Origin: a virus | DNA: 64,000 bases | Virus record (IMG/VR): IMGVR_UViG_3300045988_185035 | Direction: 5' to 3' (one strand) | Shown here: in pieces, positions 2,812 through 56,972 of the stretch | Numbering within the stretch: position 1 is the first letter of the stretch | How the letters are laid out: every line of letters begins with the position of its first letter | Made by a program: the position numbers and the translations under genes | Notes under the pieces: model-generated | What the model saw: only the letters and a program-made list of their open reading frames with translations | Database searches by the model: none | Told to the model about the DNA's origin: nothing

Positions 2812-2814
2812 TTA

Positions 2815-11372: not shown

Positions 11373-11467
11373 ATGGTAGTCGCAAGGAGTAAAACCTTGA
11401 CGACAAATGTATTATTTAGTATATGCGGTTCGCACGATTCGGCAATACAGATTATTTGAAGCACATT

Positions 11468-30018: not shown

Positions 30019-30441
30019 TTATCTTTCCTCCAGTTTACAGCGCCGCAGCGGTATGCGCAGCTCACGACAGGTGTATGCGGTTTCTCGTTCATCTTCGGCT
30101 CCTTCAAAGACTACACAGCCTTTCTGCTGCTGTTTGGAAAGGTATGTAGGTAAATCATCGTTTGTGACAGATACAAATAGGTATCCACGCTCACTGGCGT
30201 ACATCGCAGCCAAGGCCGCAATCTTCTGCCCTGATTCTGCTACAATGACAACCTTATCTCGCTTTGCCAGCATCTTGTCGAGATACTCAGCTACCTGTTT
30301 GCGGTGCTTCCCCATCGCTTGCTGCGTGGCAGTAACACCACAAAAGAACCAATCCTTTTCGCAGATTCTGGCATCGCATTCCTTGCACTGAAGGTAAACC
30401 ACATTGCCGTTTATGTATGGACAGTAAATGCTCATTCGCAA
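30019..30441 (-). CDS. hypothetical protein with N-terminal Cys4 zinc-finger and Rossmann-like segment
   Basis: CPYINGNVVYLQCKECDARICEKDWFFC; VVIVAESGQKIAALAAMYASERG. Confidence 0.45.
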   Translation of the reverse strand: MRMSIYCPYINGNVVYLQCKECDARICEKDWFFCGVTATQQAMGKHRKQVAEYLDKMLAKRDKVVIVAESGQKIAALAAMYASERGYLFVSVTNDDLPTYLSKQQQKGCVVFEGAEDERETAYTCRELRIPLRRCKLEER

Positions 30442-30660
30442 TTACACCTTTTTGAAATATTTCTCAACGTATTCATCCGGCAGCTCCATGCGCATCTTAT
30501 CCGGTCCTGTGAATTCCTTGAAGCTATATTGCCCACCGCACCAGAACAGATGCCAGATAGTCCCGCGTTTGACGCGGTACGGCTTCTTTTTGCCATCAGG
30601 CCCGTCATACCATAGTGTCAGCGGCTTGACGCATTTGTAATTTGTGTTATACATATCGCT
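30442..30660 (-). CDS. small hypothetical protein (about 72 aa)
   Basis: AAGGAGCGAT-ATG internal start; the longer ORF is Arg-rich and overlaps its neighbour. Confidence 0.4.
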   Translation of the reverse strand, partial: SDMYNTNYKCVKPLTLWYDGPDGKKKPYRVKRGTIWHLFWCGGQYSFKEFTGPDKMRMELPDEYVEKYFKKV

Positions 30661-30703
30661 CCTTGTTTTTGTTGGTGGATTCTCCAACCCGTATTTATTT
30701 GTC

Positions 30704-31183
30704 TTATCTCTTATTCGGCGACAAAACCCAAATCTCCACATTAGCGTTCCACGCCTCAGCAGCTTCGGCAATGAGAGAAAAGACAGTGTCCCAATCACCG
30801 CCCGCCAGGCCGCAGCCGATGCTGCTCGGAATACGGATAGTTGCTTCCGGGGCAATTTTCGAACAATCTCGCATAAACGTAAACAATGCCGTTGCAAAGG
30901 CAGCATAGTTCGTCTGACGTTCACCAAGTCCATAGTTATTTTGCCCAAACAGGTTCACGACATGAATGTTCGGCTCAACCCGGACTTTCTGGTAACTGCC
31001 AAGGAACTCCTTCCATGCCGGAATTTCCATATATTGCTGGTACACAACGGGCCACTTACGGCGAATTTTGAGAGCAAGCCCCGCGCCCATCACGCCTCGA
31101 CAATTCACCTGTTGACAGATGTAGACATCCTTGTTAGTGGGAAGATTCGTCAGGATGTCGCCGGAGATAATCTTGATGCTCAT
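30704..31183 (-). CDS. macro domain protein (ADP-ribose binding/hydrolase)
   Basis: IKIISGDIL...DVYICQQVNCRGVMGAGLALKI ... GCGLAGGDW matches the MacroD-like ADP-ribose-binding loops. Confidence 0.8.
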   Translation of the reverse strand: MSIKIISGDILTNLPTNKDVYICQQVNCRGVMGAGLALKIRRKWPVVYQQYMEIPAWKEFLGSYQKVRVEPNIHVVNLFGQNNYGLGERQTNYAAFATALFTFMRDCSKIAPEATIRIPSSIGCGLAGGDWDTVFSLIAEAAEAWNANVEIWVLSPNKR

Positions 31184-31187
31184 GTCC

Positions 31188-31787
31188 TCACTCCTTTATG
31201 ACGGTATAGTTGCCCGTGGCAAAGCCCAGCAGCTTGTTGTAAAGTTCCGCAGCAATTTCAATGAATGTCTCGCTGCAAGGGCTTATCCTGTGCAGAAAAC
31301 GCTTGTCTTGCTGCATCATAGATGCCATATTGAAGGCAATGGCAAGAACCTTTTTCTGCATGCGGCCGAAAGTCACGCCTCTCATTTCCACACTGTCAGG
31401 CGTTGCTGCCCACACGGATGCCTGTACTGTAATGGCCCACAGGTCCGCATCCCAGAAGCGAGCGTTTTCGTTGCCCATCAAGGGCCGCATAATGCGCCAG
31501 GCGTTCTCGTAGCTCTTGCCTTCGACATTTTCAATGGCAGGCCCGAAGAAGCCGTCCGTTTTGTTGCTGAGTTCAATGAGACGCTCAGCCATCTTGGTGG
31601 CAGCGTAGGCCAGAGACTTGGCATCGGTGTCGTTCATTTCGATAGTCAGCTCTTCCCCATCGGGCTTGATGTACTTATACTTGTTCTCACCGATGGCTGC
31701 ACTCTCCCACAGGATGCGGGGCAGTTCCTTCAGCATGGTCTTGCTTGCACCAGCCTTTGCTTTATCAATGTAACTGCTGTTTGCCAT
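31188..31787 (-). CDS. hypothetical protein, paralog of 38391-39053
   Basis: AKSLAYAATKMAERLIELSNKTDGF aligns with AKHLAESSVLLAERLMVLYNMTAGF. Confidence 0.6.
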   Translation of the reverse strand: MANSSYIDKAKAGASKTMLKELPRILWESAAIGENKYKYIKPDGEELTIEMNDTDAKSLAYAATKMAERLIELSNKTDGFFGPAIENVEGKSYENAWRIMRPLMGNENARFWDADLWAITVQASVWAATPDSVEMRGVTFGRMQKKVLAIAFNMASMMQQDKRFLHRISPCSETFIEIAAELYNKLLGFATGNYTVIKE

Positions 31788-31825
31788 GTTGTGTTCCTTT
31801 CAGTTCAAATGATAGATGCCTTAAC

Positions 31826-32251
31826 TCAATTCAGTTTGTTTCCCGGATAGAGTGCATAATCATTGCGGGATGTATGCTCCTCGCTATGTATCAGCATCAC
31901 GTTCGCCATGCTGGTGTAGTAGTCTTTGTCTCCGCTCATAGTGTCTTCGACCTCGAACTTGATGTTCAGACCGCCATCAACAATCTCGTACTTTACGAGT
32001 TTGGCTATGACCCACTGGTTATTATGTCGGTAGTAGATGTGGTCATAGTCAGGCTCTGCTGTCTCTGCTGTGCCGGGTTCGGCCGTCTCGCTCGTAGCAA
32101 ACAGCTGCGACGGAATGTCTTTCAGCTCTTCCAGCGTCTGGTCTGCCACTTCACCGCATCCCTCGAAGGCTACCGCAACGACCAGAATCACGCACACAAC
32201 CAATACTTTCTTTGCAAATCGCATAATCTGTTTCAAATGAATCACCACCAT
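31826..32251 (-). CDS. small lipoprotein
   Basis: Signal peptide plus lipobox AFEGC. Confidence 0.5.
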   Translation of the reverse strand: MVVIHLKQIMRFAKKVLVVCVILVVAVAFEGCGEVADQTLEELKDIPSQLFATSETAEPGTAETAEPDYDHIYYRHNNQWVIAKLVKYEIVDGGLNIKFEVEDTMSGDKDYYTSMANVMLIHSEEHTSRNDYALYPGNKLN

Positions 32252-32552
32252 TATTGTAGGTGCAATGTGCTTTTTTGCTTTCTCTATCTATAATTTTACC
32301 TGTAAAAACAGCAAAATACAACGATAGTAGCTTGTTTTTAATCTTCTGTACACATTTTGAAAGAGTGTCTTTGCCATCGAATAGAAAAGAAAAAGCCCGC
32401 CTGTTAGCAGCAGGCAGGCCGTTCTCGCAGTGAGCGTTTTAGGTCCGCTCAAGACCCTATTCGTCTCTACCGAAGCAACGCTGTCAACGCTGTTCAGTAT
32501 CTATTAGTATATGGTGGTCGCATATCGTGTCAACTGGATATCGCGGCAATGC

Positions 32553-32596
32553 AACAGAAAAAGGAGCCTCGCCCGTTTTTGCAGGTAAGACTCCTC
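32553..32596 (-). terminator. rho-independent terminator
   Basis: Hairpin GGAGCCTCGCCCG...CGGGCGAGGCTCC followed by TTTTT on the minus strand. Confidence 0.55.
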
Positions 32597-32607
32597 GTTC
32601 GTTTGGC

Positions 32608-32934
32608 TTAGCCTTCGATATCGAAAGTGTAGCCCTTCACGGTCATAGTGACCAGGCCGCCACGAGACTGACACTTTACGCCGTCCAGGCTGACATCGAG
32701 AGTCAGGCTGGAATCTTCGTTGTCCAGCCAGCTGGGCCGCATGTAGGCAGCGAGGTCGTGCAGCGCACCGATGACGTAAGCAACCAGGTCCTCATCATCC
32801 AGAGTCTGAGCAATCACATCGTTTTCCTTGTCGGCGGGAAAGCCGATGGAAGCGGTGATGCTGTCAAGGGTGTTGTCGTCCTTGGAGCGGAAAGCGGTGG
32901 CGCTGAACTCAATCAGGTTGGGGTTGATGTTCAT
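32608..32934 (-). CDS. hypothetical protein, tandem paralog A (108 aa)
   Basis: AAGGAGAATACCACT-ATG; shares ATAFR..DDN.L.S..ASI..P.......I..TLDDE.L....ALH/YNL......P.WLD.ED.SLTLD....G..AQSRGGLV with 33120-33440. Confidence 0.6.
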   Translation of the reverse strand: MNINPNLIEFSATAFRSKDDNTLDSITASIGFPADKENDVIAQTLDDEDLVAYVIGALHDLAAYMRPSWLDNEDSSLTLDVSLDGVKCQSRGGLVTMTVKGYTFDIEG

Positions 32935-33065
32935 AGTGGTATTCTCCTTTATATTTGTTATTAGTTCCCTGTGGTACTTATTATTGTATGCGACTCGCAT
33001 AAGGCGTCAACCGTCGCGCCTACGGCTTTTGCAGCTATGCTCTCTTATCCGTTTAGCAGCTACGC

Positions 33066-33106
33066 AACAAAAAAGGAGCCTCACCCGCTGCTGCAGGCAA
33101 GGCTCT
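33066..33106 (-). terminator. rho-independent terminator
   Basis: GGAGCCTCACCCGCTGCTGCAGGCAAGGCTC hairpin with a T-tract on the minus strand. Confidence 0.5.
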
Positions 33107-33119
33107 GAATTGTCTCAGC

Positions 33120-33440
33120 TTAATCTTCGAGGTTGAAGGTGAAGCCGTTTCCTTTCATAGCAACGAGACCGCCGCGTGACTGAGCCTCGCTGCCGTCGAT
33201 GAAAATATCCAGCGTCAGGCTGGTATCCTCGCCGTCCAGCCAGTTGGGGCGCAGGTCGCTGACAAGGTTGTACAGTGCTGCAACAGCATGAACAATAAGC
33301 TTCTCATCGTCCAGCGTGTTCCCAATCACTTCGTCGTCGTTCTCCACGGGTACGCTGATGGAAGCCGAGAGACTTTCGAGGTTGTTGTCGTCATCGTTGC
33401 GGAATGCGGTAGCTTCGAATTTCAGAGTGCAAGTGTTCAT
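33120..33440 (-). CDS. hypothetical protein, tandem paralog B (106 aa)
   Basis: AAAGGAGAACACCAAT-ATG; paralog of 32608-32934. Confidence 0.6.
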   Translation of the reverse strand: MNTCTLKFEATAFRNDDDNNLESLSASISVPVENDDEVIGNTLDDEKLIVHAVAALYNLVSDLRPNWLDGEDTSLTLDIFIDGSEAQSRGGLVAMKGNGFTFNLED

Positions 33441-33635
33441 ATTGGTGTTCTCCTTTGTGTGTTATTGAGATTCTTCTTGCACCTTTAATTGTACGCAAAT
33501 CGCACGATACAGCAATATAAAATTCCTTTAATAGAATCCGAAATATTTGAATTCAATTCGTGATTTCTTTGATTTTGTGATTTTCGCACGCGTAGGTGCC
33601 AAAAAGTTTATGTATAGCCTGGTTTATACTGACCT

Positions 33636-34532
33636 TTATGAATTTTGTTCATACACATTTATCAGCACTTGCTTGTTGGATGCAATAAGTGTCACCTTTT
33701 CACTGTAATTGATGCCTGGCGTCAAGAACATCCTTTTATTAAGAATTTCAGTGGTATATGTATAATCAAAGAGTCGATTTGTCAAATCTGCATTTTTATT
33801 TGAAGTGAAAATGACGCCTATATGCGTAGCCAGTGGAACCCAAATCTCTAAATTTTCGTTTTTGGACCGGAAACAAGCTACCGGAAAATTTGAAGTGATG
33901 AAGACTTTGCTTGTATAGCAAAAACGAAATTTAAAATTGCTTAATATGTTGCTAAAGTTTTCGGCTTGAAATCCCTCAAGTTTCCTTAATTCGTCCGTTG
34001 GTACGATTGTTCGATTTAGTGCTTGCTTTAGAAATGCGTTCATCATCAGACCCCACTCGTCTTTACCGAGAACAGGACCCTTCAGATTGTTAAACATGCG
34101 CTCATAGGTTGTTTTGTTCCTAAAATAAAGTTGAGCAATAAATTGAAACAGTATGCTCTTTTCTTCTTTATTTAGAATTAGGACTGTATTAAAATTTTCA
34201 TGGTGGCTTGCTATTTCTATAATTTTGTCAATCAATTTCTTTTGCTGAGATTCAAATTTTGAAAAGAGGTGCTCTTTCTCATTATGTAGAATATATTGGC
34301 CGCCATATTGGCTTTCATACAAATTATTAGCAGAGCACAAACTTGAGACTCCATTTTCTTTCGGGCGAGGGTTGATTCCTGTAGCCTCAAGAGAATAAAC
34401 CACGCCGGGTTTCCCCGGAATTGAAAAATAAGACAAGTAAAATTGTGGGACATAGTGTTCATTGACCGTTGCATTTTGCACATTTGATGACATCGTTATT
34501 GCTCCTTTCATAAAAAGAAAAAAGCCTCCCAC
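33636..34532 (-). CDS. DUF4238-like protein (HxVPxxYL motif)
   Basis: N-terminal NEHYVPQFYLSYF motif characteristic of DUF4238; lies in an AT-rich segment. Confidence 0.55.
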   Translation of the reverse strand: MGGFFLFMKGAITMSSNVQNATVNEHYVPQFYLSYFSIPGKPGVVYSLEATGINPRPKENGVSSLCSANNLYESQYGGQYILHNEKEHLFSKFESQQKKLIDKIIEIASHHENFNTVLILNKEEKSILFQFIAQLYFRNKTTYERMFNNLKGPVLGKDEWGLMMNAFLKQALNRTIVPTDELRKLEGFQAENFSNILSNFKFRFCYTSKVFITSNFPVACFRSKNENLEIWVPLATHIGVIFTSNKNADLTNRLFDYTYTTEILNKRMFLTPGINYSEKVTLIASNKQVLINVYEQNS

Positions 34533-34632
34533 CGTAGTCAGTGTGATACTGATTACGATAGGAGGCTGTGAACCTGTTGTGATGATTGTATTATAGCACG
34601 AATTGAGAATTGCGCAAGACTATATAAGGCGC

Positions 34633-35250
34633 TTATTTGGGTGTTATTGTTAACGGTGTCCCAATTTTGACAGCTAAGAACCAGTGACCACTCCTACATT
34701 CTACCTTATGATATATTACCCGCGCCTTGTTCGTTTTGTCTAATGCTATTTTTTCTCCTGTTAGAAGCTCTATACTATTATTTTCATAATCAACAATTCC
34801 AAGCAGAATTTGCTTTGTCTCACTTGGCGCGATAAATTCGATTGTAACAAATTTCTGTTCGTTGACAACAATTTCTATGTCAGTTGCAACATCATTTCCT
34901 TTGTTATATATATCAAGTTTGATTGCAAATTTTTGGGCGTGGTCGAGCAGCGCTTCTTCAAAGTCATTGGCGTTCATTCTCGCGATTACATTTGCACTTT
35001 TGCTTGCTTGTAAACAATATTGCTTTTCTTCTATATCAGCTGTTTTTTGTGTGAGGATTATAATGCTGACTAAATTAAGCGTTTCAACGACGCTTGCTAT
35101 AATTTCCCACGCATCATTGATTTTCAGACAATACAGAGCTACCCTGACTATTAGTATAATGATTGCGGAAATGCTCCAAACGTAAACAGGCTTTACTTTT
35201 CTTTTGAAGTGCTTATCATTTGATTCCATAGCATTTAATATTGTTTTCAA
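34633..35250 (-). CDS. membrane protein (two N-terminal TM helices plus soluble domain)
   Basis: Hydrophobic segments VYVWSISAIIILIVRVALY and IIASVVETLNLVSIIILT; AT-rich. Confidence 0.5.
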   Translation of the reverse strand: MKTILNAMESNDKHFKRKVKPVYVWSISAIIILIVRVALYCLKINDAWEIIASVVETLNLVSIIILTQKTADIEEKQYCLQASKSANVIARMNANDFEEALLDHAQKFAIKLDIYNKGNDVATDIEIVVNEQKFVTIEFIAPSETKQILLGIVDYENNSIELLTGEKIALDKTNKARVIYHKVECRSGHWFLAVKIGTPLTITPK

Positions 35251-36649
35251 TCTCTTCCCCTAACTCCCTATTTGTCTCCGCATCCCCCACCATATCTCTC
35301 AGCAATACAAACATAGCTCTCAACACAATGCCAGAGCCATGATAACGCCCAACGCGCTGGTACTTTTCAGAGTCGCAACAGTCATGCAGTATCGTTGCTT
35401 GCCCGAACGCGACAGCCGCATTAAGTGCCATCGCAATGGGCGTTCCAATGGCAAACTCGCCATCTGAAACCAATGCGAGCTTTGCAAGCCAGATATAGGA
35501 GCGGTAAACATAGAGTATCTCTTCCAGCAACATGCCGCTCCAATCGGAACCTGTGTCGTTCCCTTGGATGGTGACAATTACCTTCTTGAAGCCATCTTTC
35601 GCCTGCTTATACTTCCTATCGGCCGCATCCAGGCAAGCCATTTGGAACATTGCCTTGTAAGAGGAATCATCCAGTTGCAGAGCTTTCTGGAAGCATTGCA
35701 ATGCTCTCTCTCCGTCTGCATACATTTGTTTTTCGGACAGGCCGTATTGAAGGAATATCTCGGCCGTAAAAGGCATTGTCTCTTTGGAGGCGTGCTCTAT
35801 GGCATCACGCAGGTATGGTCTTGCATCAAGAGCAAATTGCGGCTGTCCTTCGCACAGTGCTGCTGCAAGGCGGTACATGGGCACGAAGCCGGGGGCTACG
35901 CGGTAGATTTTGTTCAGCTCCGAGAGCAGCTTCTCTACCGGTTCAAGAATCGAAAGCAGCCTTATTGTCAACGAGGTGTAAGTCTCCAACGCGGCTGTAA
36001 GCTCTCTTAGATGTCTCTGTGCGTTCACATAAGCGTACACGGAATAGATGCTCTGTGGCCCTACTCGACTTTGCTTTTCCAGCCCAATGAAGGAATCTGC
36101 CATCTCGTTAAGGAAGCTGTCTTCCGGCAACTTGTAATCACTCTTTAGGCTGAGAGCCTTTAGTTCGCTCATTTTCAGAACCTGAAACGTTCTCTTGATT
36201 TGCAAGTGCGCGAACATGTCAAATTGCCAGAAGGTCTCATTGATGTGCTGTAGACTCGCTACTGCCATCGCATCTCCTCGCCAAACGTGACGGATGATGT
36301 CATTAAGTGCTTCCTTCTCAAACTGCATCACAGAGGAACGGCTCTGTATAGCATCAGCACCATTGATAATTAGTTTCTGTTCCTTGATGCTGAAAGCGCA
36401 CCACAATTCATTCTCAGCCAGCTCTGCATCACCGGGATAGCGGTCAGTGAGAAACAGATACGCTGTCTGTTTATTTTCAGGATGCGCCAATATCTTATGT
36501 TGCTTTGACATGTCTTCGGCCGACATCCTGGTTGTTCTGACCAGGCAGCCAACGAAGGAAAAGAATGTTCTCAAGACTTCTTTTTCTGCTCCGGCTTGCG
36601 GTTCGTAGCAAATTTTGATAGCCATAATTGGCTTGATTGCATTGCTCAT
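35216..36649 (-). CDS. large hypothetical protein with TPR-like helical repeats (477 aa)
   Basis: Six-frame ORF; helical repeats (ALQCFQKALQLDDSSYKAMFQMA); overlaps the previous gene by 35 nt. Confidence 0.55.
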   Translation of the reverse strand: MSNAIKPIMAIKICYEPQAGAEKEVLRTFFSFVGCLVRTTRMSAEDMSKQHKILAHPENKQTAYLFLTDRYPGDAELAENELWCAFSIKEQKLIINGADAIQSRSSVMQFEKEALNDIIRHVWRGDAMAVASLQHINETFWQFDMFAHLQIKRTFQVLKMSELKALSLKSDYKLPEDSFLNEMADSFIGLEKQSRVGPQSIYSVYAYVNAQRHLRELTAALETYTSLTIRLLSILEPVEKLLSELNKIYRVAPGFVPMYRLAAALCEGQPQFALDARPYLRDAIEHASKETMPFTAEIFLQYGLSEKQMYADGERALQCFQKALQLDDSSYKAMFQMACLDAADRKYKQAKDGFKKVIVTIQGNDTGSDWSGMLLEEILYVYRSYIWLAKLALVSDGEFAIGTPIAMALNAAVAFGQATILHDCCDSEKYQRVGRYHGSGIVLRAMFVLLRDMVGDAETNRELGEEIENNIKCYGIK

Positions 36650-36667
36650 GATTGCTTTTTATAACAA

Positions 36668-36710
36668 GAAACGCACGCGTGCGTTCAAAATCACATGCGT
36701 GCGTTTTAAG
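36668..36710. promoter_or_regulatory. perfect 16-bp palindrome AACGCACGCGTGCGTT plus half-site repeat (ACATGCGTGCGTTTT)
   Basis: Intergenic between 36712-37329 and the start of 35216-36649; candidate operator or bidirectional terminator. Confidence 0.45.
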
Positions 36711-36711
36711 A

Positions 36712-37329
36712 TTATTTCGTTTCTTTCTTCGGATAGACACCGCTCGTTGTAGCCGTAAACAGCTTTTGGAAGATTGCTACAGCTACCAAGCAGAACCTCT
36801 CTGTTTTTGTTCTTCCTTCTACTTGCAGGCAGCCGCTTTCCTGAATTTGAAGCAGCGCCTTATAGATGGCTCCATAGATGGTCTTTCGGAGGTCTGCATC
36901 TTCTTTGAGTACAGCCACGATGTCTTTCGATGCCCAGGTGCAAACGCACATGAGTTCTGAAAATTTTTCGTCTTCTCCTTCAAAGGCCAGCTTCCCGCCG
37001 GGTGCGAAAGCTGCAAGTGCCAGTTTGTAAAGGTCCACGTCATCTTTCGGCGTTTTGAGTTTGTCAGACTCTTTTGTGGCATCCCATACTTTAAGGATGC
37101 CGTCAGCATATTTTGCCGACATGAAAGCAAGTCTGGTTCGCGTAAAATCGTTTGCCTTTACACGCTGCTCAGTTTCGGGATTGTAACAGGTCGTACTATC
37201 TACAATGTACTGCTGCTTCATCGTCGTCTCGATAGCTCGAACTGCAGGCATCAGACTTTTTGTATAGCTTTCAAGGGCTTGAAAGCCTTTATCCCCTTCG
37301 CTATTGCGATTCTTGTAATTGCACTTCAT
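36712..37329 (-). CDS. hypothetical protein (205 aa)
   Basis: Six-frame ORF. Confidence 0.55.
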   Translation of the reverse strand: MKCNYKNRNSEGDKGFQALESYTKSLMPAVRAIETTMKQQYIVDSTTCYNPETEQRVKANDFTRTRLAFMSAKYADGILKVWDATKESDKLKTPKDDVDLYKLALAAFAPGGKLAFEGEDEKFSELMCVCTWASKDIVAVLKEDADLRKTIYGAIYKALLQIQESGCLQVEGRTKTERFCLVAVAIFQKLFTATTSGVYPKKETK

Positions 37330-37340
37330 AGATGCCTCCG

Positions 37341-37952
37341 TTACGCAATAGAATTAACCATATCCAACTCCATACAGAAAACCACGAAGGCCAGGTTGGT
37401 GATTTTATCGGCATCCGTATCGAGATGCCCGACAAGTTCCTTGACCGCACCGCCGTCCTTGAGGCTCTTGGCCGCCTGGTAGATGAGCATGTAGGTGTTG
37501 ACGTAGATAGCCTGCTGTTTCACGCGGTCCTTGGTAATGTGCTCCGGCATGCAATCCTCGGACAGCGACTTAATGAGCGGATACCAGCAGGAAAGGTACA
37601 AAGCACCTCCCTCATCGTTCATCGCCTGCTGAATCTTGACCTGATACTTCGGGTAATTGCCATTCACGACCTCAATGAACTCGGTATCTTTGAACTCATC
37701 GCGGTGGCAGTGAAGCCACAGGATAGCGTTGGCAAGGTCCATGCAGATGAGCGCCAGCTTTTCGGCTTTGGCATCATCCAGTTTGACGGTATCGAAGCTG
37801 TCAGCATCGATGTCATACTGCTTGTAAATGTTCACCAGCTTGTAGCTATTCTCCCCTGCGCGTACCTTTGCCTTGATGAAGTCGGTAAAGTCGTGCGCCA
37901 GGGCCTCGTAGGCTTTCTGCTGCTCTTCGGCAATCGTATTCTGTTCGCTCAT
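37341..37952 (-). CDS. hypothetical protein, paralog of 39180-39791
   Basis: AAGGAGAACTCAAC-ATG; shares YKLVNIY, LKDGGAVKELV and DADKITNLAF with the paralog. Confidence 0.6.
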   Translation of the reverse strand: MSEQNTIAEEQQKAYEALAHDFTDFIKAKVRAGENSYKLVNIYKQYDIDADSFDTVKLDDAKAEKLALICMDLANAILWLHCHRDEFKDTEFIEVVNGNYPKYQVKIQQAMNDEGGALYLSCWYPLIKSLSEDCMPEHITKDRVKQQAIYVNTYMLIYQAAKSLKDGGAVKELVGHLDTDADKITNLAFVVFCMELDMVNSIA

Positions 37953-37966
37953 GTTGAGTTCTCCTT

Positions 37967-38410
37967 TTATCTTAATTTGGTCCTGATTTCTTCGAGCATC
38001 ATGCCCAGTTTGTTCTGACCGTGAACGCCCTTGCATCTGGGACACTGGCAATCCCCCCAATAGTTATCGTGCCAGCCGGTCGTGTCTTCGATAATGTGCC
38101 GGTCGCCTGTAGCGAGCAGTCGCTGTTTGAACTCTTCGTTCTGGTTGAACTTGGCATACAGCACCCGGCGCATCGCCTCGTCTCGAACTTCGTCCCAATC
38201 TGGAGGAAGTTGGACCCGGCGGCCGAGTCGCTTAGCCTCGTTCGGCATGAGACAGGCAAACTGGCGTCTCTCCTCCGGCGGGACCTTCTGGGCTTGGAAT
38301 GCTGCTTCCGCGTTGAGGTAGTAGATTCCATCCAGCACAAAGGAGCAAGGATAATAATTGCTCAGAAACCCGTAGGTCGGGTCGTCTTTCTTAAACCGCA
38401 GCAGATTCAA
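37967..38410 (-). CDS. NADAR-domain protein (YbiA-like; ADP-ribose/N-glycoside hydrolase family)
   Basis: LSNYYPCSFVLDGIYYLNAEAAFQAQK...AKRLGR...KFNQNEEFKQRLLATGDRHIIE...DNYWGDC matches the NADAR/YbiA signature; likely TTG start after GGAGG. Confidence 0.8.
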   Translation of the reverse strand: MNLLRFKKDDPTYGFLSNYYPCSFVLDGIYYLNAEAAFQAQKVPPEERRQFACLMPNEAKRLGRRVQLPPDWDEVRDEAMRRVLYAKFNQNEEFKQRLLATGDRHIIEDTTGWHDNYWGDCQCPRCKGVHGQNKLGMMLEEIRTKLR

Positions 38411-39053
38411 TGTGCATTCCCTCCATAACCCCGGCGGGCGTATTTTTGAGAACCTTGTAGCGCATCGTCGTAGCACCAAGCAGACCGTTGAAGACGGTCA
38501 CGGCGGTATGCACGAACAGAGGGTTCTGCAAGGTCATCTTGCCGTTTGTATCCCACTGGCCTTTGAGTTCAGCGGCCGCATCGTACACAACCATCATCAT
38601 GGCTTCATACATGTCGGACATCAGCTGTCGGTCGTACTTCTTCAAAGCATAGTAGCTTGGCAGGTTGTAAACGCGGCCGAGGAGCGGCTCGTCATACAAG
38701 GGCGAACCTTTCGCAACCATCGTATTGTAGACTTTGGGCCAGGCAGCTTCTTTCGGCTTGCCGGTGGTTGCCTGCATCTCGATGTTCTTGAAACCAGCCG
38801 TCATGTTGTACAGCACCATGAGCCGCTCGGCAAGCAAGACAGAAGATTCAGCCAGGTGCTTTGCTTCCTCATTGGTCATCGCAACCTGCATGGCCGTGCT
38901 GTCCGAGTCGTTGCCATAATAGAAATACTGCTTGCGCCCGGCGGCAGATTTCTGTACGAGCTTCTTTGCCAGCTGGCTCTCGATGTAATTGTAGATGTCG
39001 TTCTCCAACTCGCAGGTGATGCGCGTTGCGGTATAATGGATATTTTTGTTCAT
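38391..39053 (-). CDS. hypothetical protein, paralog of 31188-31787
   Basis: Six-frame ORF; preceded by the promoter motif and a leader hairpin. Confidence 0.6.
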   Translation of the reverse strand: MNKNIHYTATRITCELENDIYNYIESQLAKKLVQKSAAGRKQYFYYGNDSDSTAMQVAMTNEEAKHLAESSVLLAERLMVLYNMTAGFKNIEMQATTGKPKEAAWPKVYNTMVAKGSPLYDEPLLGRVYNLPSYYALKKYDRQLMSDMYEAMMMVVYDAAAELKGQWDTNGKMTLQNPLFVHTAVTVFNGLLGATTMRYKVLKNTPAGVMEGMHIESAAV

Positions 39054-39134
39054 GTAGTAGCCTCTTTCTGCATAGTAAAAAGAAAGAGCGGGCGAGCCGC
39101 TCTCCTCAAGACACTTATTTATCTTACGATTTTT

Positions 39135-39175
39135 ATTCTATGCAATTCGCACAGACACGCAAGGCGAAATAGCGA
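39135..39175 (-). promoter_or_regulatory. sigma70-like promoter TTGCGT-N16-TAGAAT with GTGCGAATTGCA spacer
   Basis: Minus strand CCTTGCGTGTCTGTGCGAATTGCATAGAAT. Confidence 0.5.
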
Positions 39176-39179
39176 CAGC

Positions 39180-39791
39180 TCACGGATTCATCTCGTATGC
39201 AATCAGCGCGTCATTGAAATACTTGAAAGCCAAGTTGCCGATTTTATCGGCGTCCTTCGGCAGCTTGTCCACCATGCGCTTAATAGAGCCGCCCGTCTTG
39301 AGAGACTTCATTGCAAGGTGAACATTCCAGTACATGTTGGTATACACCAACTGCCACTTCTTCTTATCGCCGACATAAGCATCCGGCATACAGTCTTCTG
39401 CCACAAGGCGGATAAGCATATCCCACGCATCCAGATAGAGCGGGCTTGTATTGTCGTTCAGCTTATGGATGATTTGCTTCAGATAGGAAGTGTAGTCTTC
39501 CCCGCTGATGTCAACGAGCCCGATGTCTGCGAACTTGTCGCGGAAGTAGTACAGCCAAAGTGTTGCTTTTGCAAGGTCGCAGCTGGCCGCAGCAAGCAGC
39601 TGAGCCTTTTCGTCCGGCAAAGTCACAATCTTGGCATCAGGGTCATCCAAGCCCTTCTCACCATAGAGATTGACCAGCTTGTACTGGTCTTTGCCGACTC
39701 TATCCTCTCTGCGGATAAACTCTTTGAAGTCTTCCACGAAGGCAATGTATGCCTGGACCTGTGGGTCGTTTTTCGGGTTGAACTCACTCAT
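39180..39791 (-). CDS. hypothetical protein, paralog of 37341-37952
   Basis: Six-frame ORF; paralog motifs as listed for 37341-37952. Confidence 0.6.
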   Translation of the reverse strand: MSEFNPKNDPQVQAYIAFVEDFKEFIRREDRVGKDQYKLVNLYGEKGLDDPDAKIVTLPDEKAQLLAAASCDLAKATLWLYYFRDKFADIGLVDISGEDYTSYLKQIIHKLNDNTSPLYLDAWDMLIRLVAEDCMPDAYVGDKKKWQLVYTNMYWNVHLAMKSLKTGGSIKRMVDKLPKDADKIGNLAFKYFNDALIAYEMNP

Positions 39792-39981
39792 GTGCGCTTC
39801 TCCTTTACTTTAGTCTACCTACAATGATACTCAATTCGAACGGATGAACAAGGAACCTTACGACATGTACATGGTTTCTTTAGAAATTGTTATCACGCTT
39901 TTAATAAACAGCGTCAAATCTCGCATTTTTGTATTCCATGTGTTATAAATGCAAGTAGAAAAGAAGGATGAGGCGTTTTTT

Positions 39982-40416
39982 ATGACACAAACTGATACTA
40001 AGACCCGTATCACTGGTTTTGGCTTTTACCTGGATGAAATCGAAAAGCTGATATTTTACATTTTCCTTGAGAATCATCATCAGACTATAGATGCAATGAC
40101 CGCTTCGGATAATGTTCGGGTGTTCCTTGACCGTATTTGTCTCGATAACGGCCGCATTAACTACGATGAAGCGGATAGGCTTTTGGCAAAGGATGACGAT
40201 TGTGCCTTGATGGGCGAATGCCTTACTGCTATCCTCAATTATGAGTTTGGAGAAGAGCTACTCTCTTGCCACTGTAGTGGTTCGACCGCCATGAACCGCC
40301 CGTGCCTTATACTTTCATCTGAAAAAGACCATGATGAGTCGGCTGCGGCGTATATGAAGAAAGCTACGAAGGAACTTCTCGTGGATTTTGAGCATGCGTG
40401 TCACTATATCCTGTAA
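39982..40416 (+). CDS. hypothetical Cys/His-rich protein (about 144 aa)
   Basis: One of few plus-strand genes; GGATGAGG 10 nt upstream of the ATG; followed by a bidirectional terminator. Confidence 0.5.
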   Translation: MTQTDTKTRITGFGFYLDEIEKLIFYIFLENHHQTIDAMTASDNVRVFLDRICLDNGRINYDEADRLLAKDDDCALMGECLTAILNYEFGEELLSCHCSGSTAMNRPCLILSSEKDHDESAAAYMKKATKELLVDFEHACHYIL

Positions 40417-40427
40417 AATAAAAAAGA

Positions 40428-40471
40428 AGGCTGCCACACCGGAGTTTGAGGTGACAGCCTATTTTTATTTT
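40428..40471. terminator. bidirectional rho-independent terminator
   Basis: AAAAAAGAAGGCTGCCAC...GTGACAGCCTATTTTTATTTT, with an A-tract and a T-tract flanking the hairpin. Confidence 0.65.
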
Positions 40472-40662
40472 GCTCGGCCATTGTAAAGCGCCGCAACCAT
40501 ATCCAATGCTTCTTCCAGTGATTTGCACTTGTAGCTGATGACGGTCCCGTTGCCCACGAGCATCGAGCCGCAGCGCCAGAAGGCTTTGCCATCGGAGGTA
40601 TAGATTGTGTTGCCATTAGATACTCGAAGCGTTACTCCGCTATTGGTTCTGATTTCATCCAT
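40465..40662 (-). CDS. small hypothetical protein (about 65 aa), tandem paralog
   Basis: AAGGAGACAAT-ATG; similar in size and Gly/Asn-rich beta-type composition to 40655-40855. Confidence 0.5.
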   Translation of the reverse strand: MDEIRTNSGVTLRVSNGNTIYTSDGKAFWRCGSMLVGNGTVISYKCKSLEEALDMVAALYNGRAK

Positions 40663-40855
40663 TGATTGTCTCCTTCCTGCCACCATACTTTGCAAGTACG
40701 ATTGCAACTGCGTCTTTCATGGTTGTGGCTTCTCCTTCGATTTCGCCATCACTCCGAATTAGGCGGCCATTGATGAACCAGTAGGATACATTATTGGAAG
40801 CAAAGATGACCGTACCATTGATACGAAGGCTGACGCCTGATTTCGTTTCAATCAT
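40655..40855 (-). CDS. small hypothetical protein (66 aa), tandem paralog
   Basis: GGGGAGGAGGCGTAATTTGT-ATG; overlaps the downstream paralog by 8 nt. Confidence 0.5.
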   Translation of the reverse strand: MIETKSGVSLRINGTVIFASNNVSYWFINGRLIRSDGEIEGEATTMKDAVAIVLAKYGGRKETING

Positions 40856-40876
40856 AACAAATTACGCCTCCTCCCC

Positions 40877-41056
40877 TTATAACTTTTTAGGAGTTGCTTT
40901 TGCTACAATACGTCCCGTTTCCGAAACATTGTGTTCCAACTGGAACGAATTGCGTTTATGACTAACAATAGCACTTGGTTTAGGTGTATAAGCTCTGACT
41001 CGATTGGCATTTGCTCTATTTAGCATTTCAAAGCATGTAGGGCAGATTTTATACAT
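40877..41056 (-). CDS. small CxxC protein (59 aa, MYKICPTCFEMLNRANANRVRAYTPKPSAIVSHK...), absent from the ORF track
   Basis: GGAGGTGAACC-ATG; start overlaps the stop codon of the upstream HNH gene. Confidence 0.4.
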   Translation of the reverse strand: MYKICPTCFEMLNRANANRVRAYTPKPSAIVSHKRNSFQLEHNVSETGRIVAKATPKKL

Positions 41057-41939
41057 GGTTCACCTCCAGGCATTCATTACAGACAGTGCGGTAATAATCT
41101 GCCGTAGGCTGTTCGCCTTTAGGAAGCGGCATGATGGGCTGGACATGAAGGCTCACACCCTCCGTCGGTGAGCGGCCGCAGAGAGTGCAGCGGAACCCAT
41201 CACGCTGCAGGACTGAGTGACGAAGCTCGGCAGATGCTGCTTTGCGAGCTGCTGCCCGTCTTTTCTTTTCTGCCTCGTGTTCCTTTGCAAGCCTGACAAA
41301 CTCCTTGGCCTCTGCCATAGAATATGTACGGGTCTCAGAGAGTGTTTTCCCTCTTGCCGGAGTATACTGCTTGACCACATGGAAGACAGGCTGTGTGACA
41401 GGTGTGCCATACACCGCATCGTTCACGAGCTTCTGTTCCCACTTGTGATAGATGCGGAACGGCACCCGGCGGCCGCAATCGTCATCTTTCTCCGTCCAGT
41501 TTGGCAGGCCTTCGAGTTCTTTTTTGTACATTCCAAACTGAATGTTGTTGCTATTGGCCCAGCCGAAGACCTCCTCAAATGCCGGAATTTTCTTCTGGAC
41601 AGTGCTCATAAAGAGCCGGTCAAAGGAGACATTTTGGTAGTTCTCCATCGTATCTTGAGGATACTCCAGCGTGATTTCCGCATCGACATCATAGAACACA
41701 TAGCCCTGATTGATTTCCAGCAGTCCTTCGAGGATATTACTTGTCTGCTTCACATTCTTCCTGGCGTGACGCGTGATAAAGAACCAGATGAGACCAACAA
41801 CGACCAGCAAGCCTGCTGCCATCAGAACAATATCCAATGACGTTATCATTGCCATTTGGTCTTCAAGCCAGAACGAGAACTCATCGGGCAGGTCAATCAG
41901 CCAGTCGTAAAAGTCAACCGGCTTTCCGTAGTTGTACAT
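41049..41939 (-). CDS. membrane-anchored HNH endonuclease
   Basis: N-terminal TM helix; C-terminal LQRDGFRCTLCGR...LHVQPI...CNEC HNH motif. Confidence 0.7.
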   Translation of the reverse strand: MYNYGKPVDFYDWLIDLPDEFSFWLEDQMAMITSLDIVLMAAGLLVVVGLIWFFITRHARKNVKQTSNILEGLLEINQGYVFYDVDAEITLEYPQDTMENYQNVSFDRLFMSTVQKKIPAFEEVFGWANSNNIQFGMYKKELEGLPNWTEKDDDCGRRVPFRIYHKWEQKLVNDAVYGTPVTQPVFHVVKQYTPARGKTLSETRTYSMAEAKEFVRLAKEHEAEKKRRAAARKAASAELRHSVLQRDGFRCTLCGRSPTEGVSLHVQPIMPLPKGEQPTADYYRTVCNECLEVNHV

Positions 41940-41952
41940 AAAAATGCCTCTT

Positions 41953-42624
41953 TCAATTCAGACCGTTTTCATCGTACTTGTTGCTCTTTCCAAGGTTACA
42001 GATGCTGCAAAGGGTCCGCAGGTTGGACGGCACAGTCTTTCCGCCTTTGGATACAGGTAAGATGTGGTCAACATGTAACGTGATGCCATCTTTCGGAGTG
42101 CGGCCGCAAAGCACACACTTAAAGCCATCGCGCTTCATAATGTCATATCGCAAGGACGGTGTCATGGCTTTCCGCTGGTATTCCTTGCTTTCCTTTTCTT
42201 TATCCTTCTGATAGGACTCGTTTATAAGAGTCTCAATCTCACTCGCGGTATAAACCTGGCTGTCCCCATAGTTTCGATGCCCCTGCGGTGAAGTATAGGT
42301 TTTGGCGCAGCGCAGGAGCAGTTCCGTTGTGGGAGTCGGACAGTTGCGTTCTTCTTTCTTGACTTCATCGCGTTCGAGTCTCGCATACATCTTTGAGCGC
42401 CATGTAGGCTCATAATCTTCTGTCTCGTCGAAGTACGGAGGCAAATCATCAAAATCATGGAGGTATTGGTTCATCAAGTTGGCATTTTCTCTTGTGAGCT
42501 GCAACAGCGTTTCAAATTCTTCTCGTTCCTTACTGACTTGCATAAAGACGTTCTTCTCGAAGTTAAAATGGTCATATTTCGGCTTTGTATCAAGTTGCCA
42601 TCTGCGAGTTACCATCCGGAACAT
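41953..42624 (-). CDS. HNH endonuclease domain protein (3' portion of a frameshifted paralog of 41049-41939)
   Basis: IMKRDGFKCVLCGRTPKDGITLHVDHILPVSKGG...NLRTLCSICN HNH motif; the N-terminal TM plus YTFYDV segment lies in ORF 42590-42874 in another frame. Confidence 0.6.
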   Translation of the reverse strand: MFRMVTRRWQLDTKPKYDHFNFEKNVFMQVSKEREEFETLLQLTRENANLMNQYLHDFDDLPPYFDETEDYEPTWRSKMYARLERDEVKKEERNCPTPTTELLLRCAKTYTSPQGHRNYGDSQVYTASEIETLINESYQKDKEKESKEYQRKAMTPSLRYDIMKRDGFKCVLCGRTPKDGITLHVDHILPVSKGGKTVPSNLRTLCSICNLGKSNKYDENGLN

Positions 42625-42874
42625 CGTAGAAGGTATATTTTCCGTTCAGCTCAATCAGTGCATGAAGCCGCGTACTGGTAGTAAGGACCAGCTGCTGCAT
42701 CTTGTTTTCATAAACCAAGTACCAGATGAATCCAAGAAGGAATACGATAGAAACTGTGAGCAGCAAAAGAAACATTGGGAAAGTCATGGGTGAAAGTCCT
42801 TTATACAAATATAGATAGAATTCGATATACGATACCAACGGCAACAAGCATAAGCACCGGAATCCAGCTGCCAA
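42590..42874 (-). pseudogene. 5' portion (TM helix plus LIELNGKYTFYDV) of the frameshifted HNH paralog
   Basis: Aligns to the N-terminal region of 41049-41939 (LEINQGYVFYDVD); the frame breaks after FYDV. Confidence 0.45.
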
Positions 42875-51431: not shown

Positions 51432-51669
51432 ATACATACTCCTTTCGCTCATCACAACCAATGCCTGTCTTTTGTGCAGGCGCGAATACAAACAAAAAAG
51501 CTGCGGAAGCAAAAGCAACCACAGCCTTTTATATGAACCACCGGCCCAGGAAAAAGCCGATGGGGTGAATACAAGCGGAAAGCAAACATGTCAAAGTGAG
51601 AGGAAACCACGTCGTACACACCGGCAGGAAGAGGTTAAGACCCGCCGGAACCCAATTCCGCTTGTACAA

Positions 51670-56777: not shown

Positions 56778-56972
56778 AATATACAACCTCAATTCGTACA
56801 GATGGTTCCTAATTCGCATATAACAACCGACTGTTGTTATTATAGCCTATCAAGTGGTGGGATGCAAGGGGTATGGAAGAATTTGCCGTTTGCAATCCCA
56901 TTAGTTACTCTACAACTGTGGAAGACCTTGACAAAAGAAAGAGAGGAGCTTGTTTGGCTCCCCTCTTTTACT

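What the first reader, a model, noticed from the sequence alone, without database searches (positions are those of the whole stretch)
33540..36710. AT-rich three-gene cassette led by a DUF4238-like gene: candidate phage-borne defence island
From about 33540 to about 35250 GC content drops visibly to roughly 35%, against about 48-50% in the flanks. The segment holds a gene whose product starts with the DUF4238 signature NEHYVPQFYLSYF (33636-34532). It is followed by a 2-TM membrane protein (34633-35250) and an overlapping 477-aa TPR-like protein (35216-36649); that third gene is closer to the flanking GC at roughly 45%. Its own promoter is a degenerate copy of the phage motif. The block is bounded by a perfect palindrome AACGCACGCGTGCGTT (36675-36690) with an adjacent half-site. 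DUF4238 single-gene systems have been reported among defence genes carried in phage and satellite hotspots. The AT-rich composition suggests a recent insertion into the phage backbone.
Basis: partly seen in the sequence, partly recalled or inferred. Interest (0 to 1): 0.7.

Follow-up and report, generated by a model that had tools for sequence, protein, structure and literature searches.

The report
Swappable DUF4238 gene slot in phage
A large human-gut phage carries a DUF4238 gene, from a family with one proven anti-phage member, in a single-gene slot behind a conserved promoter-hairpin leader where related phages carry at least eleven other unrelated genes, so it is an exchangeable accessory gene and not part of a three-gene cassette.

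Summary
Window 33540-35250 is the lowest-GC stretch of the window (36% against 49%), the three ORFs exist, and gene 1 is a true Pfam DUF4238 protein (E 4e-25).

The "three-gene cassette" reading is wrong; comparison with about 60 related loci shows three separate units:
- The 477-aa gene has backbone GC (48%), belongs to a family of more than 150 clusters in huge gut phages, and has its own conserved twin-palindrome control region. The reported palindrome is one of those boxes.
- The 2-TM gene is a separate AT-rich module, 99-100% identical between phages whose flanks differ by 13-19%.
- DUF4238 sits alone in a slot between a conserved ~115-nt leader (sigma-70-type promoter, 19-bp hairpin, U-run) and the promoter of the next gene.

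Two near-identical phages from independent samples have deleted the 477-aa and 2-TM genes but kept the leader and DUF4238. The closest IMG/VR relatives carry an unrelated 160-aa gene in the slot. The same leader precedes at least 12 AT-rich cargo families, two of them DUF4238 lineages.

DUF4238 is under purifying selection (dN/dS 0.11-0.17) and keeps the family-invariant residues. It misses PADLOC's DUF4238-Pers model, and its fold has no solved relative. A defence role is inferred, not shown.

The parts
33636..34493 (-). DUF4238 ORF, 285 aa from ATG 34493 (the longest ORF, from GTG 34532, reads through the hairpin arm). GC 36%, GC3 36%.
   Evidence: ORF. Pfam PF14022 at E 4.2e-25. Homologues are called at 285 aa. 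Family-invariant residues H13, Y59, E74 and R125 are retained. dN/dS is 0.11-0.17. AF2 model has pLDDT 93.7.
33578..34507 (-). Exchangeable cargo segment: SD, DUF4238 ORF and a 58-nt 3' tail. L001 and L002 hold an unrelated ~485-bp segment with a 160-aa ORF at this position.
   Evidence: blastn breakpoints at window 34508 and 33577. Identity drops to 22-34% inside the segment and is 95-100% just outside on the leader side.
34512..34622 (-). Conserved leader: -35 TTGCGC at 34612-34617, extended -10 TGcTATAAT at 34590-34598, conserved single-stranded stretch ACAACAGGTT at 34571-34580, 19-bp hairpin at 34523-34567, T-run at 34512-34522. The SD (34502-34508) follows it.
   Evidence: Sequence. Alignments across loci. 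RNA fold is -33.2 kcal/mol, z -6.65. 96.9% of cells are paired but with no significant covariation. nhmmer finds a single copy in the window at 34513-34622. No Rfam match. It precedes at least 12 cargo families.
34633..35229 (-). 2-TM protein gene, 198 aa from ATG 35229 (205 aa from TTG 35250), GC 35%. It is a separate AT-rich module whose left junction (~35233) supplies the last five codons of the 477-aa ORF.
   Evidence: ORF. Hydropathy. No Pfam, PHROG or PADLOC hit. It is 99-100% identical in L001 and L002, whereas the neighbouring 477-aa gene is 81-87% identical. It is found only with 160-aa-cargo phages and the window. Junction. Frameshifted in L002.
35216..36649 (-). 477-aa helical (sub-threshold TPR) protein gene with backbone GC (48%). 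It is widespread in huge gut phages, and the variable region begins immediately downstream of it.
   Evidence: ORF. GC. At least 153 homologous clusters on contigs up to 350 kb. Upstream synteny is conserved and downstream content is variable in L013-L020. Deleted in L177 and L178.
36670..36705 (.). Twin palindromic boxes: perfect AACGCACGCGTGCGTT at 36670-36685 and a degenerate copy at 36690-36705. They lie 21-56 nt upstream of the 477-aa start and are a putative operator of that gene.
   Evidence: Both boxes are conserved upstream of the 477-aa gene in L001, L002, L005, L007 and L013.
33441..33577 (-). Conserved right flank of the slot: the promoter and 5' region of the downstream 106-aa gene (33120-33440).
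   Evidence: Homology with L001 and L002 resumes at 33577. The same sequence follows unrelated cargo in L001 and L051.
34659..36678 (.). 2,020-bp segment (477-aa gene plus most of the 2-TM gene) that is cleanly deleted in two near-identical phages from independent samples.
   Evidence: L177 and L178 are 98-99% identical to window 30029-42514 except for this gap. The junction reads GAACGCAC|CGTTAAC.

Best explanation
The AT-rich block is not one cassette. It is two independent accessory modules in the hypervariable region of a huge human-gut phage.

Module 1 is a 2-TM protein gene. Module 2 is a single-gene slot that here holds DUF4238.

The slot is defined by two conserved flanks. On the left is a ~115-nt leader made of a sigma-70-type extended -10 promoter, a very stable hairpin with a U-run, and then the cargo's own SD. 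On the right is the promoter of the next backbone gene. Homologous recombination in these flanks between co-infecting relatives swaps the cargo. This step is inferred from breakpoints that lie exactly at the flanks.

The cargo pool holds at least 12 unrelated AT-rich gene families.

DUF4238 is a functional, selectively maintained single-domain protein. By analogy with the P2-borne DUF4238 gene that blocks T7, it most likely protects the infected cell and resident phage against competing phages. The promoter-proximal terminator hairpin most likely keeps its expression low or conditional.

Shown: the anatomy, the independence of the three genes, the slot behaviour, family membership, and purifying selection. 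Inferred: the defence role, the attenuator role of the hairpin, and the recombination mechanism. The biochemical activity of DUF4238 is unknown.
For: - GC minimum and ORFs.
- Pfam DUF4238 at E 4e-25.
- 375 representative clusters, nearly all 280-300 aa and single-domain.
- Invariant H13/Y59/E74/R125 retained.
- dN/dS 0.11-0.17.
- Replacement by a 160-aa ORF in L001 and L002, with breakpoints at the T-run and at the downstream promoter.
- Different upstream neighbours in L003, L005, L006, L007 and L010.
- The leader is conserved across loci whose DUF4238 proteins are only 38-52% identical, and it sits before other cargo.
- 61 leader instances and 12 cargo families, including a second DUF4238 lineage.
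- Two slots per genome in some phages, with cargo C1 found in either slot.
- L177 and L178 keep the leader and DUF4238 after deleting the other two genes.
- Neighbouring variable cargo in relatives includes a TIR/ThsB-like protein, GmrSD-HNH, methylases and homing-type endonucleases.
- Experimental precedent for single-gene DUF4238 defence in a P2 hotspot.
- The only viral structural match is a gene beside the integrase of the P2-like phage Smp131.
Against: - No match to PADLOC's DUF4238-Pers model, so the protein is not close to the validated one.
- Defence has been shown for only one family member.
- None of the other cargo families has a defence annotation.
- Several neighbours (NADAR, macro-like, methylases) are counter-defence-type genes, so the region is not purely defensive.
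- The hairpin shows no covariation.
- Host and lifestyle of the phage are unknown.
Confidence: 0.6

Rival explanations
1. One reading: the 477-aa, 2-TM and DUF4238 genes form one three-gene defence cassette, inserted as a block and bounded by the palindrome.
For: The genes are adjacent on the same strand, and genes 2 and 3 overlap. A 477-aa homologue (56% identity) lies directly upstream of DUF4238 (52% identity) in the distant L007-L009 lineage too.
Against: - The 477-aa gene has backbone GC and occurs in more than 150 clusters, most without DUF4238.
- DUF4238 occurs without it in L003, L006, L010, L177 and L178.
- The 2-TM gene occurs with the 160-aa cargo instead.
- The three genes have different divergence histories.
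- The palindrome is a conserved upstream element of the 477-aa gene in all clades.
Confidence: 0.04
2. DUF4238 and the other leader-driven cargo are offensive functions that help the phage overcome its bacterial host (counter-defence or host takeover). They are not defences against other phages.
For: The same variable region carries NADAR, macro-like, DNA methylase and AcrVA2-like genes. Accessory regions of large lytic phages are typically rich in anti-defence genes (general knowledge).
Against: The only tested DUF4238 protein is a defence gene. TIR/ThsB-like and GmrSD-type genes, and Cas genes in L006, sit in the same regions of relatives.
Confidence: 0.2
3. The leader-cargo units are selfish or neutral passengers spread by recombination or homing. 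The low GC simply marks foreign DNA with no benefit to the phage.
For: - GIY-YIG, HNH and DUF4379 endonuclease-like genes abound nearby.
- Cargo is dispensable and is swapped or lost.
- The 2-TM gene is frameshifted in L002.
Against: - DUF4238 is under purifying selection over dS up to ~1.
- It retains all family-invariant residues.
- It was kept in L177 and L178 while 2 kb next to it was deleted.
- Each cargo has a good SD and a conserved promoter.
Confidence: 0.12
4. For the leader only: it encodes a ~65-nt small RNA (conserved 5' single strand plus terminator hairpin) that acts in trans, and the downstream ORF is expressed only by read-through. Alternatively, the hairpin is just the terminator of the upstream gene.
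For: The layout is promoter, then conserved unpaired ACAACAGGTT, then a strong hairpin with a U-run. Loop and stem sequence are conserved well beyond what a generic terminator needs.
Against: - No enriched complementary target in the window: 4 hits against 1.8 expected, one of them the element itself.
- No Rfam family.
- No covariation.
- The upstream gene differs in every lineage while promoter and hairpin stay together, which argues against a simple upstream-gene terminator.
Confidence: 0.25

Closest known systems
Rst_DUF4238 / 'DUF4238-Pers': the single-gene DUF4238 defence from the E. coli P2-prophage hotspot (Rousset et al. 2022, PMC9122126)
   Same: Same Pfam family and the same ~290-aa single-domain architecture. 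It is a single gene carried by a phage in a variable hotspot where relatives carry other genes, and it is AT-rich relative to its carrier.
   Different: - The sequence is very distant: no hit to PADLOC's DUF4238-Pers model, and tblastn finds nothing in 50,697 deposited phages.
- The carrier is a huge gut phage of 100-390 kb with a tRNA array, not a P2-like temperate phage.
- The slot has a dedicated promoter-hairpin leader.
- Activity is untested.
PeSL (promoter-early stem-loop) elements of T4-like phages (Arbiol et al. 2010, PMC2839356; Comeau et al. 2014, PMC4122927)
   Same: Both are conserved composite elements of a sigma-70-type promoter plus a stem-loop. Both lie immediately upstream of variable, mostly orphan ORFs in hyperplastic regions, and exchange breakpoints fall at the element. 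Some genomes carry more than one copy, with the same cargo found behind different copies.
   Different: - In PeSLs the stem-loop lies upstream of the promoter. Here it lies downstream, inside the 5' leader.
- This element is longer (~115 nt) and far more sequence-conserved.
- It has 1-2 copies per locus rather than dozens per genome.
- The phage group is unrelated.
- Mini-circle formation has not been tested.
Phage morons (autonomous promoter-gene-terminator units inserted between backbone genes; general knowledge, Hendrix and colleagues)
   Same: A single accessory gene with its own promoter, atypical AT-rich composition, placed between backbone genes, and present or absent among relatives.
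   Different: Unrelated cargo genes share one conserved leader. The terminator-like hairpin precedes the gene rather than following it. No terminator was found after the DUF4238 stop codon.
Integron gene cassettes
   Same: Interchangeable single-gene cassettes occupy a fixed genomic position, drawn from a large and diverse pool of mostly unknown genes.
   Different: No integrase or attC-type sites were seen. Each unit brings or uses its own promoter. Exchange is most simply explained by homologous recombination in conserved flanks.
Defence systems carried by huge phages, e.g. CRISPR-Cas in huge phages (Al-Shayeb et al. 2020; cited from general knowledge)
   Same: Large phages carry host-type immune genes, presumably aimed at competing phages. 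A relative here (L006) encodes Cas5d/Csd1 about 8 kb from its DUF4238 gene.
   Different: The effector here is a single protein of unknown mechanism, not an RNA-guided system.

Membership tests
Pfam DUF4238 (PF14022) | Profile match above the curated gathering score | tested here: met
   E 4.2e-25, 89.2 bits against a cutoff of 27, covering profile positions 1-229 of 281.
Pfam DUF4238 (PF14022) | Single-domain protein of about 280-300 aa with the N-terminal HYVPxFYL motif and family-invariant polar residues | tested here: met
   The protein is 285 aa. Nearly all of the 150 best representatives are 280-310 aa. H13, Y59, E74 and R125 are invariant, and P16, C53, E60, N71 and E81 nearly so, across 118 diverse members, all numbered on the window protein.
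Rst_DUF4238 / DUF4238-Pers defence system (Rousset 2022; PADLOC PDLC03000) | Match to the system's own HMM | tested here: not met
   No PADLOC hit even at E up to 1. The model is narrow, since only 9 of 118 diverse DUF4238 proteins match it. The DefenseFinder model was not available.
Rst_DUF4238 / DUF4238-Pers defence system | Works as a single gene with no conserved partner | tested here: met
   Upstream neighbours differ in every lineage. L177 and L178 retain it after loss of the 477-aa and 2-TM genes. Autonomy of function itself was not tested.
Rst_DUF4238 / DUF4238-Pers defence system | Located in a variable hotspot of a mobile element where relatives carry other cargo | tested here: met
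   Replaced by a 160-aa ORF in L001 and L002. At least 12 cargo families share the same leader.
Rst_DUF4238 / DUF4238-Pers defence system | Confers resistance to phage infection | not testable with these tools
   Shown experimentally only for the E. coli P2-hotspot protein against T7.
PeSL elements (T4-like phages) | Conserved composite promoter plus stem-loop next to variable ORFs, with exchange breakpoints at the element | tested here: met
PeSL elements (T4-like phages) | Stem-loop located just upstream of the promoter (terminator, then promoter, then SD, then ATG) | tested here: not met
   The order here is promoter, then hairpin with U-run, then SD, then ATG.
PeSL elements (T4-like phages) | Many copies per genome, clustered in hyperplastic regions | tested here: inconclusive
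   One copy in the 64-kb window and in most loci. Two copies 1.3-3.9 kb apart in seven contigs. Complete genomes were not scanned.
Tetratricopeptide-repeat proteins (for the 477-aa gene) | TPR profile match above threshold | tested here: not met
   The best matches are TPR_1 and TPR_2 at 16-17 bits against cutoffs of 27-28. One source (JGI) names a homologue 'TPR repeat protein'.

The most novel reading that the evidence does not exclude
The ~115-nt promoter-hairpin leader defines a previously undescribed cassette-exchange system in huge human-gut phages. On this reading it has two roles. It is a functional RNA element (an attenuator or short RNA) that gates expression of potentially toxic single-gene effectors. 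It is also the recombination handle through which a pool of at least 12 AT-rich gene families, including two DUF4238 lineages, is shuffled between phages and between slots. The leader could then serve as a sequence beacon for finding new phage-versus-phage immunity or counter-immunity genes.
Probability: 0.4. Interest if true: 0.75.

Novelty: new variant of a known kind. Interest (0 to 1): 0.58.

Why it matters
DUF4238 is one of the defence families with no known mechanism and, as shown here, no solved structural relative. Finding two deeply divergent lineages of it maintained under purifying selection in huge gut phages extends the family beyond P2-type prophages. It also gives a compact natural unit (leader plus ORF, ~1.05 kb) and four invariant residues to test.

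More generally, the conserved leader marks a slot whose alternative occupants are almost all unannotated. A 22-nt core retrieves it specifically: 41 phage or gut-metagenome loci, against one chance hit in 185,579 bacterial genomes. That gives a cheap way to harvest candidate phage-borne immunity or anti-immunity genes, and to study how accessory genes are exchanged among uncultivated huge phages.

Tried and rejected
- **Deposited phages:** megablast of the region and tblastn of DUF4238, of a typical family member (P0150) and of the 160-aa cargo against 50,697 phages all found nothing.
- **PHROGs:** no hits for any of the three genes.
- **Solved structures by sequence:** nothing.
- **First AF2 model:** built from 16 close homologues, it was unusable at pLDDT 48. 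A 118-sequence alignment fixed this.
- **Leader 16-mer scan of viral contigs:** it returned mostly chance hits and had to be filtered and repeated with a 22-mer.
- **Bacterial-genome scan:** the only hit was a chance match inside an H. ducreyi CDS.
- **Covariation in the hairpin:** not significant.
- **Trans-target search for the leader's conserved 5' segment:** no enrichment.
- **Palindrome motif across the window:** not enriched, 3 against 2.8 expected.
- **Directly abutting cassette arrays:** rejected, because the two leaders are separated by a conserved backbone segment encoding a 154-aa protein (2.9 kb in L148).
- **Assembly chimera at the shared leader:** rejected, because two independent samples show the same junction of 2-TM remnant, leader and DUF4238.
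Full report
**1. The observation**

The window is a piece of a large phage. It has 22 tRNA genes at 976-11372 and almost all genes are on the minus strand. PHROG matches include tail-related, clamp-loader-like and nucleotidyltransferase families. Close relatives are IMG/VR viral contigs of 84-390 kb.

GC over 33540-35250 is 36.1% against a window mean of 48.9%. This is the lowest value of any equally sized stretch, 4.3 SD below the mean. The three ORFs exist.

- **Gene 1 (33636-34532):** it hits Pfam DUF4238 at E 4.2e-25. The likely start is ATG 34493, preceded by AAAGGAG, giving 285 aa as called in homologues.
- **Gene 2:** it has two N-terminal hydrophobic segments followed by a ~135-aa soluble part, and matches no family in any library.
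- **Gene 3 (477 aa):** GC is 48.0%, which equals the backbone and is not ~45%. Its TPR hits are all below threshold.
- **Palindrome:** AACGCACGCGTGCGTT is at 36670-36685, five bases from the stated position, with a degenerate second copy at 36690-36705.

**2. Three units, not one cassette**

*Closest viral relatives.* L001 (95% identical) and L002 (91%) keep the 477-aa and 2-TM genes. They replace window 33578-34507 (SD, DUF4238 ORF and 58 nt) with an unrelated ~485-bp segment encoding a 160-aa protein.

*Identity profile.* Genes at 36757-38100 are 93-100% identical. The 477-aa gene is only 81-87% identical between the window and L002. The adjacent 2-TM gene is 99-100% identical in all three phages. 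The DUF4238 segment is unalignable. These are separate histories.

*Boundaries and distribution of the 2-TM module.* Its left junction lies about five codons before the stop of the 477-aa ORF, at ~35233. Among all fetched loci the 2-TM gene occurs only in phages with the 160-aa cargo and in the window. It is frameshifted in L002.

*Neighbours of DUF4238 in other relatives.*

| Locus | DUF4238 identity to window | Upstream neighbours |
|---|---|---|
| L005 | 85% | 98-aa and 117-aa AT-rich ORFs |
| L003 | 79% | EcoRI-type methylase, GmrSD-HNH, small membrane ORFs |
| L006 | 81% | GmrSD-HNH, a 202-aa ORF at 29% GC |
| L010 | 38% | DUF4379 protein |
| L007-L009 | 52% | a 477-aa homologue (56% identity) |

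*The 477-aa family.* It is much larger than the DUF4238 clade: at least 153 clusters, on contigs up to 350 kb, against about 20 clusters. In eight further IMG/VR loci anchored on the 477-aa gene, upstream synteny is conserved. The downstream content varies and never includes DUF4238. It comprises two C5 methylases, an EcoRI-type methylase, a TIR/ThsB-like protein, GmrSD-HNH, and GIY-YIG and DUF4379 endonuclease-like genes.

*Natural deletion variants.* L177 and L178 come from two independent sequencing runs and are 98-99% identical to window 30029-42514. They carry a clean 2,020-bp deletion of 34659-36678. The deletion removes the 477-aa gene and most of the 2-TM gene. It retains the 2-TM 3' remnant, the leader and a 99%-identical DUF4238. 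This shows the window's junction is not an assembly chimera. It also shows DUF4238 is maintained without the other two genes.

*The palindrome.* It is one of two tandem boxes conserved upstream of the 477-aa gene even in the 56%-identity clade. It is therefore that gene's control element, not a cassette boundary.

**3. The slot and its leader**

Between the 2-TM stop and the DUF4238 SD lies a ~115-nt element:
- -35 TTGCGC at 34612-34617
- a 16-nt spacer
- TGcTATAAT at 34590-34598
- a conserved unpaired ACAACAGGTT
- a 19-bp hairpin at 34523-34567
- a T-run

The RNA folds at -33.2 kcal/mol with z = -6.65. The promoter matches the window's own extended -10 motif, found 7 times on the gene strand against ~1 expected, mostly upstream of genes. 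In alignments the hexamers are conserved while the spacer varies.

The element is present once in every locus with DUF4238. It is also present, unchanged, before the 160-aa cargo. Its conservation exceeds that of the coding sequence behind it: 85% in L010, where the protein is 38% identical.

Rfam has no match. Pairing is 96.9%, but changes are almost all one-sided, so there is no statistical covariation.

The swap breakpoint with L001 and L002 falls just after the T-run. The right breakpoint falls at the conserved promoter region of the next gene, which also follows unrelated cargo in L001 and L051.

*Wider scans.* An exact 22-nt core retrieved 10 viral and 31 metagenome loci, with human-gut titles and contigs up to 389 kb. 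It gave only one chance hit in 185,579 bacterial genomes. Across all loci there are 61 leader instances. The ORF that follows falls into at least 12 unrelated families, all at 30-41% GC:

| Cargo | Length | Annotation |
|---|---|---|
| C1 | 269-273 aa | none |
| C2 | 146-160 aa | none |
| C3 | 285-292 aa | DUF4238 |
| C4 | 417 aa | borderline DUF3800 |
| C7 | 286 aa | second DUF4238 lineage: Pfam E 3e-13, barely alignable to the window protein |
| C8 | partial | HNH-containing |
| C10 | 143 aa | SEC-C motif |
| C5, C6, C9, C11, C12 | various | no annotation |

Seven contigs carry two leaders. In six of them the leaders are separated by a conserved ~650-nt backbone segment encoding a 154-aa protein; in L148 the spacer is 2.9 kb. 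Cargo C1 occurs behind either leader.

**4. DUF4238 itself**

A profile search of 1.84 billion representatives finds 375 clusters, of which only five score at E of 1e-30 or better. The phage clade is therefore a small, distinct branch, and members are almost all 280-300 aa.

Across 118 diverse members H13, Y59, E74 and R125 are invariant, and P16, L20, F23, C53, E60, N71, E81, F198 and P204 are nearly so. All are present in the window protein.

Among the window, L003, L005 and L006, dN/dS is 0.11-0.17 with dS 0.38-1.06. The gene is functional and long-resident, yet it stays at 33-37% GC in phages of 40-49% GC. Low GC is thus a maintained property of the cargo pool and not evidence of a recent insertion.

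In BFVD the only match is Smp_43 of the P2-like Stenotrophomonas phage Smp131, a gene beside the integrase. It matches the family profile at 93% probability.

PADLOC holds a DUF4238-Pers model, but only 9 of 118 diverse family members match it, and the window protein does not.

**5. How it most likely works**

Shown: a single-gene slot with conserved flanks, many alternative cargos, and a selectively maintained DUF4238 protein.

Inferred:
- Homologous recombination in the flanks during co-infection exchanges the cargo.
- The promoter-proximal terminator hairpin limits or conditions expression of effectors that may be toxic.
- DUF4238 acts as a single-protein anti-phage effector that protects the resident phage's infected cell from competitors. 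The basis is the P2-hotspot DUF4238 gene that blocks T7. Defence-type neighbours in relatives (TIR, GmrSD, Cas5d/Csd1) point the same way.

The invariant His/Tyr/Glu/Arg set suggests an enzyme or ligand-binding site, but the chemistry is unknown.

Rivals: a counter-defence or takeover role (NADAR, macro-like, methylase and AcrVA2-like neighbours), or selfish passenger status. Neither is excluded.

**6. Comparison with known systems, and verdict**

It is a member of Pfam DUF4238. It works like Rst_DUF4238, but it fails the only system-specific model available.

The leader resembles PeSLs of T4-like phages in its role and position. Its order is reversed, since in PeSLs the stem-loop precedes the promoter. 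It is also longer, has few copies, and occurs in an unrelated phage group. It also recalls morons and integron cassettes, but without a downstream terminator, integrase or attC.

The three-gene cassette, the palindrome boundary and the recent-insertion reading do not. The leader-defined exchange slot is the more interesting result.

Noticed in passing
window 34512-34622 (minus strand); also L001:12028-12139, L005:9857-9982, L007:9859-9978, L051, L074, L098, L130 and others: A conserved ~115-nt promoter-hairpin-U-run leader precedes at least 12 unrelated AT-rich cargo genes in huge gut phages. It has no Rfam match and is absent from representative bacterial genomes.
   Followed up: yes
window 36670-36705; L013:~6900-6960, L007:~8030-8090: Two tandem palindromic boxes (consensus ~ACGCACGCGTGCGT, about 20 bp apart) are conserved upstream of the 477-aa gene across clades that share only 56% protein identity. 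They look like an operator for an unidentified dimeric regulator.
   Followed up: partly
window 34633-35250 vs L001:11400-12017 and L002:11400-12018: The AT-rich 2-TM gene is 99-100% identical between phages whose adjacent 477-aa genes differ by 13-19%, which implies recent lateral spread. It is frameshifted in L002. Small AT-rich membrane-protein ORFs also precede the leader in L003, L005, L016 and L130, so there may be a second variable position holding possible superinfection-exclusion proteins.
   Followed up: partly
window 42026-42790: A ~765-bp segment overlapping the 223-aa gene at 41953-42624 is absent from L001 and L002 but present in L005 and L177. Its L005 and L177 homologues carry HNH domains, and it is weakly similar to the GmrSD-HNH proteins. 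This is homing-endonuclease-like presence/absence.
   Followed up: partly
window 37967-38479 and 30704-31183: A NADAR-domain gene (Pfam E 3e-28) and a gene matching phrog_335 ('phosphatase') flank the variable region. At least the NADAR gene suggests reversal of ADP-ribosylation, i.e. counter-defence; the nature of the phrog_335 match was not examined further.
   Followed up: no
window 31188-31787, 36712-37329, 37341-38060, 38391-39053, 39180-39791; and 32608-33000 / 33120-33440: Tandem paralogous gene families of unknown function surround the slot: 199-239-aa proteins, and the 106/130-aa 'fam1' pair at ~68% nucleotide identity.
   Followed up: partly
L016:10901-11662; L013:8473-10572; L006:12164-13983; L010:186-1073 and 10902-11582: Relatives carry the following in or near the same variable region: a TIR protein (PADLOC PDC-S66 at 1e-40, ThsB at 9e-26), paired C5 methylases, Cas5d/Csd1 genes, an AcrVA2-like gene, and an ADP-ribosyltransferase-like gene directly after DUF4238.
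   Followed up: partly
L151, L152, L155, L173, L154, L158 (inter-leader segments); L148 has a longer 2.9-kb spacer: In phages with two leader slots, the leaders are separated by a conserved ~650-nt segment of normal GC that encodes a 154-aa protein (MSTLKNGEFGIDLDKEKILW...), 89-96% identical between contigs.
   Followed up: partly
window 976-11372: An array of 22 tRNA genes, all on the minus strand, interspersed with short ORFs.
   Followed up: no
window 49740-51518 and 55509-56819: An SPFH/flotillin-domain protein (592 aa) and a Y-family (ImpB/MucB/DinB-type) DNA polymerase are encoded in the phage window.
   Followed up: no
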